Source of the DNA: Pelagomonas calceolata
Taxonomy: Eukaryota
NCBI GenBank assembly: GCA_918797485.1
Contig: CAKKNE010000001.1
Coordinates: forward strand, 3,844,001-3,908,000
Reading direction: 5' to 3'
DNA length: 64,000 nucleotides
A program made the translations under genes and the position numbers. Shown piece by piece: positions 35,775 to 39,885 of the stretch (positions are counted from its first letter, which is position 1; every line of letters begins with the position of its first letter). Below the pieces are notes generated by a model. That model was not told where the DNA came from. It did not search any database and saw only the letters and a program-made list of their open reading frames with translations.

Positions 35775-37016
35775 TCAGGACTTCGGCAGCCCCCAGAGCT
35801 TGAGCGTCTTGTCGCCCGACCCAGACACGACGCGCCGCCCGTCCGGGGAGATAGCAACGCTCGTGACCTACGACGAAGACAGATCATGACAAAGGTACAG
35901 CGGACGCTGCGCAACGCACATATTGCGAGTGCCCTTTCAGCGTCGCCACGCACTCGCCGGTCGCCACGTCCCACACCTTGAGCGTCTCGTCGCGCGACCC
36001 AGACACGACGCGCCGCCCGTCCGGTGAGATAGCAACGCTCTTGACCTACGACGAAGACAGATCATCACGAAAGTACAGTGGACGCCGCAACGCACGATAT
36101 TCGAGTGCCCTTTCAGCGTCGCTAGGCACTCGCCGGTCGCCACGTCCCAGACCTTGAGCGTGTTGTCGCCCGACGCAGACACGACGCGCCGCCCGTCCGG
36201 AAACACGGCAACGCTCAGGACCTACGACGAAGACCCATCATCACGAAAGTACAGTGGACGCCGCGCAACGCACTTGACGACGAGTGCCCTGAGACGAGTG
36301 CCCTTCCAGCGTCGCCACGCACTCGCCGGTCGCCACGTCCCACACCTTGAGCGTGCTGTCGTCCGACCCAGACACGACGCGCTGCCCGTCCGGAAACACG
36401 GCAACGCCAAAGACCTACAACGAAGACACATCATCACAAAAAGTACAGCGGACGCCGAAACGCACGTAACTCGAGTGCCCTTCCAGCGTCGCCACGCACT
36501 CGCCGGTCGCCACGTCCCACACCTTGAGCGTCTTGTCGCTTGACGCAGACACGACGCGCCGCCCGTCCGGAAACACGGCAACGCTCAGGACCTACGACGA
36601 AGACCCATCATCACGAAAGTACAGTGGACGCCGCAACGCACACTCGACGAGTGCCCTTCCAGCGTCGCCACGCACTCGCCGGTCTCGATGTTCCACACCT
36701 TGAGCGTGTTGTCGCTCGACCCAGAAACAATGCGCCGCCCGTCCGGAAACATGGCAACGCCCCACACCTACGACGAAGCCAGATCATCACAAAAGTACAG
36801 CGGACGCCGCAACGCACGGGCCGCGAGTGCCCTTCCAGCGTCGCCACGCACTCGCCGGTCGCCACGTCCCAGACCTTGAGCGTCTCGTCGTCCGACGCAG
36901 AAACAATGCGCCGCCCGTCCGGAAACACCGCAACGCCATTGACCTACGACGAAGCCAGATCATCACAAGAGTACAGTGGACGCGGCAACGCACGTCGCCC
37001 GAGTGCCCTTTCAGCG
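35775..37016 (-). repeat. Tandem array of ~176-bp exon+intron units encoding WD40 blades
   Basis: Seven near-identical units: a 126-nt exon plus a 50-52-nt intron GTGCGTT...CTTCGTYGTAG. Confidence 0.95.
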
Positions 37017-39885
37017 TCCGCAGCTCGACGAGCTTCGACAGGTCCACGCCTTCGGAAAACGGCATGAACCGCAGGTCGCCGCGCGACGCCGTCGCGACCG
37101 CGCTCGCGTCCCAGATCGACTGCAGTACCTTCATCGGTTCGGCTTCCGACGGGGTCGTGGCGGCGTCCGCGTCGACAGCGGCCTTCTCTGCCACGGGCGC
37201 GTCGACGGCGTCGTTTGGTGACGCCTTCTGTGCGCCGTCACTACCGCGCGCTGGTACCGAAGACACTTCGCTAACAGTAGTAGCGTCGCCATGAGTCGCA
37301 ACGGGCGCCGAAGTCTCCTCAGCCACAGCACCCACAACATCGTCCGCCGCCGTCTCCGCCCGGTTCTCGCGCTCCGCGGCATCATCAAACTTCTCATCAT
37401 CCAGTTCGACGCGCCCCAGGAACTCGAGCCAGCCGCCCGGCACCACTTCATTCACAACAGCAACCGCGAGCTGCGCGCGCGTCATCGCGCGGTACAAACG
37501 CGACCGAGTCTCGAGCACGCCCGCGCCGCGATCGATGACTTGGTCCAGTCCAACACAAATAATGACGAGCCGTTCCAAACCGTCCATATTGTCGACGCTG
37601 TCGACGACGAGCAGCTGCTTCGCGTCGGCGGCGCGCGCCTCGGTGTCACCGCGCGGCAAGACCGCGCTCGCCGTCGCCGCGTCGACGAGCTCGAATCCTC
37701 CCAGAGCGCGACCGAGCGGCTCGCGGAGCTTCTCAATAAACGCTTCATCTGGCCCAACGACCGCCACGCGGTCATCCAGGTCCTCTAAATCCACGAGCTG
37801 GCGCCGGATGGCAGTCAGCGCCTCGACGACCTCGCGCGCATAGGTCTCGCCCGCATCGTCGCCTTTAGACGTCGTAAAGATCCTCGCCACGAGCGGCGGC
37901 CCCGCTGATGCCGAATGCGTCGACGTCTCGGCCTTGCGCCCGGCCTCGAGCTGGAACGCGGCGGCGCCAGCAACAATCCGCTTCGTCGAGCGGACCACTT
38001 CCGAGAGTGTCGCCACGACAACACCTTGGTCTTGGGGCAAGTCTACAAGTGAGCGCGCGATCTCCTCTGGACTGGATATCGTCGATGTCGCTTGAGAGAC
38101 GTCGCCGAGGAACAACAGACTCGATTCGGCAGCACCAAGCTCCGCGAGCTCCGATCGAAGCGAGGAGTCGCCCACGAGGTGGTGCGCTTCGTCGACGACA
38201 ATGAGCGCGTACGTCGTGGCGTCGCAACGCTTCTCGCCCAGCACGAGCCGCCGTCGACCGCCCAGCGCCTCGACGCGCACGCACCGCGGCCCACTCGAAA
38301 ACGGCGCCACCAACACGTGCACGCGCTCCACAACATGCTCGGCAGACTTGCGCGACGCGATGACAAGCCACTTGCAGACAAAGAGCGCCAGCGCTTCGTT
38401 TCGCGCCACGAAAAGAACCGTCGCATCGGGGTCTTCGTTCAGCACCTGCACCACTCGTTGGACAGCAACAAAGGTCTTCCCACCGCCCGCAGGCGCAAGC
38501 AGCACCGCAACCGACGCGCGTCGCACGGCCTCGAGCTTCTCGCGCTGGTGCATCGTCAACCTCGTGAACCGCATCATGATTCGCGCGTAACACTCCATGA
38601 ACGCGCCGCGATCAACGTGAATATTGACGCCGGCGCGGTCGACGCGGAGCTTAGCGAGAAGCGGAGGCTCCGCGGGCGGCGCGCCCGGAGAACTTTCGGA
38701 GTCTTCCGGAGAGAGGAATCGGTCGTTCGTGAGCAGACACCGGCCGCTCCGACTCACGGAAGCATCGAATCCCAGTTCCCTCATCGATTCGCTGGCGAGC
38801 TTCTCCGCGAGCTGCGAGGCGTCGCGCGGCAGGGCCTCGTTGATTGCAGTCTCGAAGGAGCCCTCGAAGAGCACGGCGTCGCGCAACCGGGCGAGGGCCG
38901 CGACATCGGCGATGCCCAGCCGAACGTGCGCGTGGACCGCGCCGCCGGCGTTGTACACGTTCGCCACTTCGCAGCCGGGCGGCAGCGCTTCGGCCAGAGC
39001 CTCCGCGAGCAAGCTGATGCGACCGCACGCGCCCAGAACCGACTGCCCGCCATCCGCCGCGAGGCTGAGCACCTGCTCGCTCTCGAGGTCCAGGCCGACG
39101 ATTGCTCTGTACAGCGCCTCGTCGCCGTCTTCGTCGACGACGCGGTCGACGTTGTAGAGCTTATGCGCGTGGTCCTTGACGATTTTGATCCGTCGTAGGT
39201 TAAGCTGCAGCTCGCCGACGAACCCCGAGACCTCCACGTTAACCTTTAGGTCCCGGTAGCCGCTCTTGAACTGATCCGTGAAGAAGCAGTCCTTGAAGCG
39301 CCGGATCGTCAGCGACCCGTCGCCCGAGGCCTCGCGCAGCACCGAGACCGCCGCATTCAAGTCTTCCAGCGAGTCGAAGAGGCCGGTCGCGCGCTCGACG
39401 TCGACGACCCGGGCCACGTCACCGTCGTAGTCGTTCTTCGCCTTCTCCGCGATGCGCTCCGCTGCTTTCTGCGGCCCGTGAACGTACTCGCCGCCCGCCC
39501 TGGTGACGAGCCTTTCGAGGGCCTCGTGCAGCGCGGCGCCGTGGTGGCTCGCCATGTCGACGAGCGCGCCGACTCCCGCGTCCGCAGCGAGCGCGCACCG
39601 CGGCGCCTTTTCGTGGAAGTCTTCCACCAGGGCGGCGCACGCGTTGCGCAGCTCGTCGACCGCCGGAATCGTCTCGCCGCGTACCACGGCACACTTGTTC
39701 CACGCATCGGCGTAGCGTTTCTCGACGCGCTTATTCGCGCCGTCCACGACTTGTCGCACCTTGCCGCGGTCGCAGCTCGCGACGTCGAGGCTGCCGCGCG
39801 GCGTGCGCGGGATGACACGGGCGAAGGCTTGCTCGAGGTCGTCCGTGAGGGCCTCGACGTCGTGCAGGCTGCTGCCGGCACCCAT
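35775..39885 (-). CDS. NLR-like multidomain protein: RelA/SpoT-like nucleotidyltransferase + SF1 helicase + 7 WD40 repeats (~1251 aa, 8 exons)
   Basis: Exons 39885-36994, 36943-36818, 36767-36642, 36591-36466, 36414-36274, 36221-36096, 36045-35920, 35867-35775; all introns GT-AG, phase 0. Motifs K...[62 protein letters not shown]...WD. Confidence 0.88.

What the first reader, a model, noticed from the sequence alone, without database searches (positions are those of the whole stretch)
35775..39885. Candidate algal immune receptor: RelA/SpoT-like enzyme + SF1 helicase + hypervariable WD40 sensor
Seen: one spliced frame of ~1251 aa starting MGAGSS (myristoylation-type N-terminus). It contains RelA/SpoT-synthetase-like motifs (K...RIAEK, VVDVERA, SGYRDL, GELQL, HKLY; ~39480-39140), a full SF1 helicase ([37 protein letters not shown]; ~38550-37440), a low-complexity linker, then 7 WD40 blades. 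Known: effector-NTPase-repeat is the NLR/STAND layout, and fungal NLRs use RelA/SpoT domains as N-terminal effectors and WD40 repeats as sensors (e.g. Podospora HET-D/E for WD40). Inference: a helicase replaces the STAND NTPase here, giving a possibly undescribed membrane-anchored sensor that makes an alarmone-like nucleotide or modifies a target on detecting a pathogen such as a giant virus.
Basis: partly seen in the sequence, partly recalled or inferred. Interest (0 to 1): 0.92.

Follow-up and report, generated by a model that had tools for sequence, protein, structure and literature searches.

The report
Algal helicase immune receptor, virus-copied effector
A real, spliced gene of a marine picoalga joins an enzyme folded like bacterial alarmone-making toxins, a helicase and a fast-varying WD40 propeller built one blade per exon, and giant-virus-like contigs carry a copy of the enzyme part alone, so it is likely a new type of algal immune receptor, although no activity has been tested.

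Summary
Observation confirmed. The 8-exon, 1251-aa model equals an unannotated Pelagomonas calceolata protein letter for letter, and RNA reads show all 7 splice joints. Residues 100-250 fold like small alarmone synthetases (best sequence and Foldseek match Tas1, a (p)ppApp toxin) and keep the catalytic-type residues. Residues 436-830 are a compact SF1 helicase (UvrD/SLFN11 fold), not a STAND NTPase. Each WD40 blade is one phase-0 exon; introns are homogenised, while amino-acid change piles up at the four positions under positive selection in Podospora HET-D/E. Relatives form a modular family: the same helicase with swapped helical N-termini or LRR and other C-termini. New here: 3 of 39 metagenome loci are AT-rich contigs whose neighbouring genes match a giant-virus MAG. 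They carry the N-terminal enzyme alone, nested among pelagophyte copies, GC-discordant and under purifying selection. Best reading (0.6): a cytosolic non-self sensor whose propeller and helicase gate an ATP-consuming pyrophosphokinase that arrests the infected cell. Ligand, product, toxicity and role in infection are untested, and a non-lethal signalling role is not excluded. It works like an NLR but is not one. No description was found in ten literature searches.

The parts
36994..39885 (-). Exon 1 (aa 1-964): N-terminal helical region, synthetase, linker domain, helicase, acidic linker, first strand of the propeller
39868..39885 (-). MGAGSS, predicted N-myristoylation motif (MGxxxS consensus, recalled); kept in most relatives and in the viral copies
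   Evidence: not tested by a predictor or experiment
39589..39885 (-). N-terminal helical region (aa 1-99), travels with the synthetase, also in the viral copies
39121..39588 (-). RelA/SpoT-fold pyrophosphokinase-like domain, Tas1/Apk-like (aa 100-255; K140 R144 K148, D162, G209-Y-R-D, E225-x-Q, H241, Y244)
38581..39120 (-). Unnamed alpha/beta linker domain (aa 256-435), no Pfam match, partly kept in relatives with other N- or C-termini
37396..38580 (-). Compact SF1 helicase-like NTPase (aa 436-830) with intact Walker A, DEAH and motif VI
37036..37395 (-). Acidic low-complexity linker ending in a conserved SIWD...LRFMPF segment
35775..37035 (-). Seven-blade WD40 array; exons 36943-36818, 36767-36642, 36591-36466, 36414-36274, 36221-36096, 36045-35920, 35867-35775
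35868..36993 (-). Seven near-identical phase-0 introns (36993-36944, 36817-36768, 36641-36592, 36465-36415, 36273-36222, 36095-36046, 35919-35868), mean p-distance 0.086

Best explanation
This is an expressed pelagophyte gene for a three-part protein (alarmone-synthetase-fold enzyme, SF1 helicase, hypervariable WD40 propeller) that likely acts as a cytosolic non-self sensor: the propeller would bind a foreign protein, the helicase would act as an ATP- or single-stranded-nucleic-acid-dependent switch, and the released enzyme is predicted to move pyrophosphate from ATP onto an adenine nucleotide ((p)ppApp) or a tRNA end, arresting the infected cell. Shown: gene structure, splicing, folds, conserved residues, site-specific repeat diversity, domain swaps, and stand-alone copies of the enzyme on giant-virus-like contigs. 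Inferred: membrane anchoring, ligand, the gating step, the product (about 0.45 (p)ppApp, 0.25 tRNA or another acceptor, 0.15 (p)ppGpp, 0.15 none; my own odds) and giant viruses as the target.
For: Enzyme: Tas1 is the top PDB match by single sequence (E 0.0098), by profile (6e-4; 6e-12) and by Foldseek (1.7e-6). VIA Z is 10.5-12.4 to SAS enzymes, Tas1 and CapRel. Catalytic-type residues are kept in 36-40 of 41 segments; dN/dS is 0.27-0.29. Relatives sit in MuF, eCIS, VgrG, HINT and ddrB-ParB proteins. Helicase: Foldseek best SLFN11 (1.9e-13), VIA Z 27.2 UvrD and 26.0 SLFN11, motifs intact, dN/dS 0.17-0.18. Sensor: the four codons equivalent to the positively selected Podospora positions rank 2-5 of 42 in pN (0.60, against 0.087 for the rest and 0.086 for introns; exact p 1.3e-4; PMC1805685 passages). 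One repeat per phase-0 exon is the layout of brown-algal candidate receptors (PMC3341825 passages). Modularity: 10 helicases with helical N-termini form one branch (95/91) inside the synthetase-bearing set; LRR, kinase and other C-termini occur. Virus link.
Against: No activity, ligand, toxicity or infection-expression data. The syn3 site reads G-Y-R-D-L-K, neither the Apk GxN nor the RSH SxH signature, and VIA ranks the (p)ppGpp synthetases RelQ and RelP level with or above Tas1. Pfam RelA_SpoT is not hit by the window domain and only weakly by 4 of 14 relatives. The same synthetase is fused to kinases, ankyrin, ARM, TPR and LIM-villin domains without any helicase, which fits general signalling. 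The viral copies keep an intact, purifying-selected active site, which is odd for a lethal effector. pS is also raised at the four codons (0.31 against 0.15), three of the five most variable codons lie next to the splice site, and 8 partial repeats compared pairwise are not a formal selection test. The MLKL identity of the swapped N-termini is only a lead.
Confidence: 0.6

Rival explanations
1. A non-lethal signalling receptor: the synthetase makes a second messenger at low level in response to stress, nutrients or an endogenous partner, and viruses copied it to steer host physiology.
For: The synthetase is fused to kinase, ankyrin, ARM, TPR and LIM-villin domains in eukaryotes. The gene is transcribed in RNA runs with no sign of infection on record. 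The viral copies are intact and under purifying selection (dN/dS 0.09-0.21). No antitoxin or hydrolase gene was recognised next to it.
Against: An endogenous ligand does not explain diversification at the propeller's top-face codons while the introns are homogenised, nor effector swapping on one helicase.
Confidence: 0.2
2. An immune-type sensor whose target is not a virus: bacterial or eukaryotic parasite effectors, or self/non-self recognition between cells, as with Podospora HET-D/E.
For: The repeat evolution is that of fungal allorecognition genes, and no ligand is known.
Against: The only foreign genomes found with a nested copy of the effector are giant-virus-like, and an SLFN11-like helicase points to nucleic-acid sensing.
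Confidence: 0.12
3. The synthetase-fold domain is a non-catalytic nucleotide-binding or decoy module, and the output is conformational or runs through the helicase.
For: The syn3 motif departs from both known signatures, and relatives replace the domain by helical bundles.
Against: The Mg- and ATP-binding-type residues (K140, R144, K148, D162, E225, Q227, H241) are kept in 37-40 of 41 segments and in the viral copies.
Confidence: 0.08

Closest known systems
Fungal NLRs of the HNWD type (Podospora HET-D/HET-E) and RelA_SpoT-NACHT-WD40 proteins of Gaeumannomyces (PMC1805685, PMC4986451; passages read)
   Same: Effector-NTPase-WD40 order, internally conserved repeats, diversification at the same two codon pairs 18 residues apart, RelA/SpoT-fold effector, N-terminal swaps
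   Different: The central domain is an SF1 helicase, not NACHT/NB-ARC; each blade is its own exon
Brown-algal LRR-ROCO and NB-ARC-TPR candidate receptors (PMC3341825, PMC11378527; passages read)
   Same: Stramenopile multigene families with one repeat per phase-0 exon
   Different: WD40 rather than LRR/TPR; helicase rather than ROC-COR or NB-ARC; enzymatic effector; introns of 50-52 nt hold no spare or inverted exons
Human SLFN11/SLFN14 (7ZEL, 9UIE; PMC9482658, PMC13056530; passages read)
   Same: Effector, linker domain, compact SF1 helicase; best Foldseek match; in SLFN11 ssDNA binding to the helicase activates the effector
   Different: No Schlafen RNase core; a pyrophosphokinase-fold effector; an added WD40 array
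Tas1/Apk1 and phage MuF Apk2 (p)ppApp synthetases; toxSAS CapRel and FaRel2 (6OX6, 7ZTB, 8PU4; PMC12226406 first part and passages; CapRel and FaRel2 papers seen only in a search listing)
   Same: Fold, syn1, Apk-type syn2 (D-x-x-R-x-T) and Tas1-like syn4 (E-x-Q-x-N); CapRel is a sensor-fused antiviral synthetase
   Different: Eukaryotic and spliced, with a myristoylation-type start; syn3 is D-x-K; no adjacent immunity gene recognised
RIG-I-like receptors (recalled, no call)
   Same: Effector-helicase-sensor logic in antiviral immunity
   Different: SF2 helicase, CARD adaptors, invariant C-terminal sensor

Membership tests
NLR / STAND receptors | STAND NTPase (NACHT or NB-ARC) | tested here: not met
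   No NACHT or NB-ARC match; nSTAND5 scores 19.8 bits against a cut-off of 34, over Walker A only. The model matches SF1 helicases at Z 26-27 over about 320 residues.
NLR / STAND receptors | Effector-NTPase-repeat order with exchangeable ends | tested here: met
NLR / STAND receptors | Ligand-triggered oligomerisation and cell death | not testable with these tools
   needs biochemistry
HNWD-type WD40 sensors | Concerted evolution of repeats with diversification at four top-face codons | tested here: met
   Exons 81-92% and introns 84-96% identical; the four codons rank 2-5 of 42. A counting test, not a codon-model test.
Brown-algal exon-shuffling receptors | One repeat per phase-0 exon of constant length | tested here: met
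Brown-algal exon-shuffling receptors | Inactivated or inverted repeat exons inside the introns | tested here: not met
   Introns are 50-52 nt; no further WD unit of this type in the window
Brown-algal exon-shuffling receptors | Alternative splicing of repeat exons | tested here: inconclusive
   An exon 3 to exon 6 joint in 5 and 3 reads against 24 and 12 for the normal joint; exons 4 and 6 share their first 50 nt, and paralogues or alleles could give the same reads
SF1 helicases | Tandem RecA fold with motifs Q, I, Ia, II, III, IV, V, VI | tested here: met
   the motif names are recalled
SF1 helicases | ATPase or unwinding activity | not testable with these tools
   SLFN11, the closest compact match, neither binds nor hydrolyses ATP alone (PMC9482658)
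Schlafen family | Schlafen RNase core domain | tested here: not met
   The N-domain has the RelA/SpoT synthetase fold instead
Small alarmone synthetases (SAS/toxSAS/Apk) | Synthetase fold with catalytic Asp and Glu and basic syn1 residues | tested here: met
Apk1/Apk2 (p)ppApp synthetases | Apk signatures at syn2 (R-x-T) and syn4 | tested here: met
   D162-V-E-R-A-T and E225-L-Q-L-N align with Tas1 D-L-A-R-N-T and E-I-Q-V-N (signatures from PMC12226406)
Apk1/Apk2 (p)ppApp synthetases | GxN at syn3 | tested here: not met
   D-x-K or D-x-Q in this family
Apk1/Apk2 (p)ppApp synthetases | (p)ppApp synthesis from ATP | not testable with these tools
   needs an assay
Long RSH of plastids and bacteria | HD hydrolase, TGS and ACT domains | tested here: not met
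   No such Pfam match in aa 1-965; the alpha/beta linker domain has no assigned family
MLKL/HeLo four-helix effectors (for the swapped N-termini of relatives) | MLKL_N domain | tested here: inconclusive
   Atlas 0.89 (MLKL_N on 22% of members) and 0.86 (57%); 5 of 20 PDB rows are MLKL at E 0.46-0.7; no Pfam MLKL_N match
Giant viruses (for L020, L021, L029) | Core hallmark genes (capsid, PolB, packaging ATPase) | tested here: inconclusive
   None in the stretches held, and the whole records could not be searched. Neighbouring genes are 73-98% identical to, and syntenic with, an IMG/VR giant-virus MAG.

The most novel reading that the evidence does not exclude
Pelagophytes, with relatives in cryptophytes and dinoflagellates, have a third class of modular algal immune receptor built on a Schlafen-type SF1 helicase. 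Its exon-shuffled WD40 sensor triggers a bacterial-toxin-type (p)ppApp synthetase or an MLKL-like pore former, and their giant viruses have captured the synthetase as a counter-defence or shut-off enzyme. That would make (p)ppApp a eukaryotic antiviral effector with a matching viral gene.
Probability: 0.35. Interest if true: 0.96.

Novelty: new variant of a known kind. Interest (0 to 1): 0.86.

Why it matters
How phytoplankton detect and resist giant viruses is largely open. This gives a concrete, expressed, testable candidate family in an abundant ocean picoalga and in the brown-tide alga Aureococcus, which has a cultured giant virus. It would extend toxSAS/(p)ppApp chemistry from bacteria-phage conflict to eukaryotes, show that the NLR logic was rebuilt on an SF1 helicase, and show the same four WD40 positions diversifying in fungi and algae. 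The host-derived viral copy is a direct handle on the arms race.

Tried and rejected
No whole genome was held, so paralogues were counted only from protein searches. Pfam, NCBIfam and PADLOC give no family for the N-domain or the linker domain; PADLOC hits are weak helicase matches. The importin-alpha hits of profile A1 come from ARM-fused members in the alignment and were discarded. Sequence-profile hits to Brr2 and RIG-I cover motifs I-II only; the fold comparison gives SF1. The IMG/VR collection held no copy of the synthetase, consistent with the empty site in the MAG. The records behind the viral-like loci could not be searched for capsid genes. A wide structural search was not run, so the N-terminal 99 residues and the linker domain were barely tested for a known fold. 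Exon skipping is not established. Depth of DNA contigs over the WD exons is up to about 40-65 times that of the flank; this hints at many related exons, but the tool says it is no copy number, so I do not count it. No complex prediction was run. Earlier-findings look-ups by sequence and place returned nothing. Literature searches gave no paper describing this family or its viral copy; 60 and 114 had zero hits. Supplements were not read; those of PMC3153485 and PMC5917014 could list members. The Tas1 paper was not held.
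Full report
1. The gene is real. On the minus strand, exon 1 (39885-36994) and seven short exons join across GT..AG introns into one frame of 1251 aa. All introns are phase 0 and 50-52 nt; five internal WD40 exons are 126 nt and one is 141 nt because of a 15-nt insertion at its end. 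The model is identical at all 1251 residues to CAH0365686.1, an 'unnamed protein product' of Pelagomonas calceolata. Stranded polyA reads cover 29-30 of 30 bins of the first stretch laid and show intron 1 removed in all four runs. All seven joints appear in both RNA runs laid on the array. These runs are one sample, and short reads do not prove a single full-length transcript. The gene lies between a TAF5-like gene (40109-41824) and a small unannotated ORF; no second copy lies in the window.

2. N-terminal enzyme (aa 100-255). Pfam is silent, but Tas1, the Pseudomonas (p)ppApp synthetase, is the best PDB match by single sequence (E 0.0098), by a profile of 30 close relatives (6e-4), by a 14-row profile that includes one more distant, phage-like member (6e-12, followed by YwaC, RelP and YjbM) and by Foldseek on a model of pLDDT 89.9 (E 1.7e-6). 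VIA gives Z 12.4 to RelQ, 11.6 to RelP, 11.1 to Tas1 and 10.5-10.7 to CapRel, so the fold does not separate the products. K140, R144, K148, D162, G209-Y-R-D, E225, Q227, H241 and Y244 are kept in 36-40 of 41 segments, the query included. Against published signatures (PMC12226406; first part and passages read), syn2 and syn4 are Apk/Tas1-like, while syn3 (D-x-K) is neither Apk (GxN) nor RSH (SxH). The profile finds 7260 representatives at E 0.001 or better. Of 56 that I scanned, many are MuF, eCIS, VgrG, HINT or ddrB-ParB proteins, and others are kinase, ankyrin, ARM, TPR or LIM fusions. Viral structure matches are mostly phage polyvalent and RelA/SpoT proteins. MGxxxS starts are kept through the family. 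I read this as myristoylation and a cytosolic location (recalled consensus, inference); no plastid leader is evident.

3. Central domain (aa 436-830). The model of aa 256-850 (pLDDT 81) matches human SLFN11 best by Foldseek (E 1.9e-13), and UvrD and SLFN11 nearly equally by VIA (Z 27.2 and 26.0, rmsd 3.4, 322 and 314 residues). Pfam AAA_30, AAA_19, PhoH, ResIII and SLFN-g3_helicase pass their cut-offs. Walker A, DEAH and the motif VI arginines are kept in most of 33-37 aligned rows, with dN/dS 0.17-0.18 in three comparisons. It is an SF1 helicase-like NTPase, not a STAND domain. In SLFN11 the helicase is not a strand-opening enzyme, and ssDNA binding to it activates the N-terminal RNase (PMC9482658 and PMC13056530, passages). 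That is the model I borrow. A predicted alpha/beta domain (aa 256-435) sits where SLFN11 has its linker domain; it has no family match.

4. WD40 sensor. Exons are 81-92% and introns 84-96% identical to each other. Amino-acid change concentrates at exon codons 41, 42, 2, 18 and 20. In Podospora HET-D/E, codons 7, 9, 25 and 27 are positively selected and lie on the propeller's top face (PMC1805685 passages). The same spacing picks codons 42, 2, 18 and 20 here, which rank 2-5 of 42 in pN (0.60 against 0.087; introns 0.086; exact p 1.3e-4). I had seen the variable columns before reading the paper, pS is also raised there (0.31 against 0.15), and two ambiguous codons of exon 5 and the end of exon 8 were left out. 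Aureococcus relatives vary at the same places, and reads from paralogues show further junction variants that are absent from the window. One repeat per phase-0 exon is the layout of Ectocarpus ROCO-LRR and NB-ARC-TPR genes (PMC3341825 passages), but here the introns hold no spare exons. A possible skip of exons 4-5 (5 and 3 reads) is inconclusive.

5. A modular family. The search with aa 1-850 gave 57 proteins among 7990 candidates: two more from P. calceolata, 12 rows from Aureococcus strains, and helicase-only matches in Baffinella, Hemiselmis and dinoflagellates. The two P. calceolata paralogue models stop at or run into their first WD intron. Among 35 helicases, the 10 with helical N-termini instead of the synthetase form one branch (95/91) nested among the 15 synthetase-bearing rows (midpoint root; 10 rows unlabelled). 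An MLKL-like identity for one such N-terminus is a lead only. C-termini also change: LRR (P0108), LRR-kinase (P0052), another repeat type (P0045), a second synthetase (P0033). Fungal NLRs with RelA_SpoT-NACHT-WD40 and effector swaps are on record (PMC4986451 passages).

6. Viral copies. Of 39 metagenome loci, three (L020, L021, L029) are 27-32% GC and carry an intronless, stand-alone ORF of 273-276 aa made of the N-terminal helices and the synthetase, about 51% identical to the window's synthetase, with the MG start and the motifs intact. Neighbours include DUF5832, NADAR, SfsA, an intein-bearing ribonucleotide reductase and a TBP-like gene. They are 73-98% identical to genes of IMG/VR GVMAG-S-3300012954-83 and in the same order, and there the site between NADAR and SfsA is an 89-nt gap without the gene. 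The ORFs have GC3 0.42-0.58 against 0.13-0.23 in five neighbours. In a 29-row tree they form one branch (100/99) inside GC-rich pelagophyte-type copies; holding the 22 host-like rows together is rejected (p-AU 0.0012; the group was named after I had seen the quick tree). dN/dS is 0.09-0.21. So the direction is host to virus, and the copy is maintained. L020 and L021 are 96% identical, so these are two lineages at most. No capsid or polymerase gene lay in the stretches held, and the host is inferred from the donor clade only. The viral copy descends from a sister subfamily, not from the window gene itself.

7. Mechanism. Most likely (0.6) the protein rests at a membrane with its enzyme held off; a foreign protein bound by the variable propeller face, with or without single-stranded nucleic acid on the helicase, releases the enzyme, which spends ATP to make (p)ppApp or modifies tRNA and stops the infected cell. 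Every step after the anatomy is inferred. The intact viral copy can be a decoy, a timed shut-off enzyme or a manipulator of signalling. It supports a role in host-virus conflict but also keeps the non-lethal signalling reading alive (0.2), as do the kinase and ankyrin fusions and unchecked notes of this scan on Tas1-like domains in other protists.

8. Standing. It works like an NLR and like SLFN11 but fails the defining test of both families. Atkinson et al. list divergent synthetases in diatoms and fungi but no WD40 fusion (PMC3153485 passages), and the AaV infection paper does not mention WD40 or helicase genes in its main text (PMC5917014 passages). Ten searches found no description; subscription papers and supplements were not seen. 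Helicase-centred receptors are a known kind (RIG-I, recalled; SLFN11), so I rate this a new variant of a known kind: an undescribed family with a specific, cheap test and a matching viral gene. Interest 0.86.

Noticed in passing
L020 5623-6450, L021 5623-6444, L029 5620-6450: Stand-alone, intact copies of the effector domain on AT-rich giant-virus-like contigs; absent from the syntenic site of GVMAG-S-3300012954-83 (L041). Further members P0075, P0076, P0260, P0262, P0263 have no context seen.
   Followed up: yes
proteins P0020-P0024, P0027-P0031, P0039, P0043: The same helicase with helical N-termini in place of the synthetase; one resembles MLKL_N weakly.
   Followed up: partly
proteins P0073, P0109, P0113, P0121, P0141, P0143, P0153; L026-L028, L032, L010, L012, L034-L035: The same synthetase family fused to protein kinases, ankyrin, ARM or TPR repeats without a helicase: a wider unannotated eukaryotic family.
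   Followed up: partly
proteins P0033, P0108, P0042, P0052, P0045: Other architectures: synthetase-helicase-synthetase, synthetase-helicase-LRR, tandem helicases, helicase-LRR-kinase, helicase with another repeat type.
   Followed up: no
window 36274-36297 (-): WD40 exon 5 ends in a short tandem duplication that adds five residues to the hypervariable loop; paralogue reads show other loop lengths.
   Followed up: partly
window 40109-41824 (-): TAF5-like gene (TFIID_NTD2 plus ordinary WD40) directly upstream; unrelated to the array.
   Followed up: partly
window 35600-35663: Reads of the opposite strand end near 35649: the downstream small gene (ORF about 35241-35642, no Pfam match) converges on this gene's 3' end.
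   Followed up: no
L037 1299-2060; L024 731-1066: A stand-alone synthetase on a 52% GC contig, and an inverted second synthetase fragment upstream of a host-like copy.
   Followed up: no
L021 1011-2312; L020 9727-12342: A U-box-ankyrin gene and an intein-bearing ribonucleotide reductase on the viral-like contigs.
   Followed up: no
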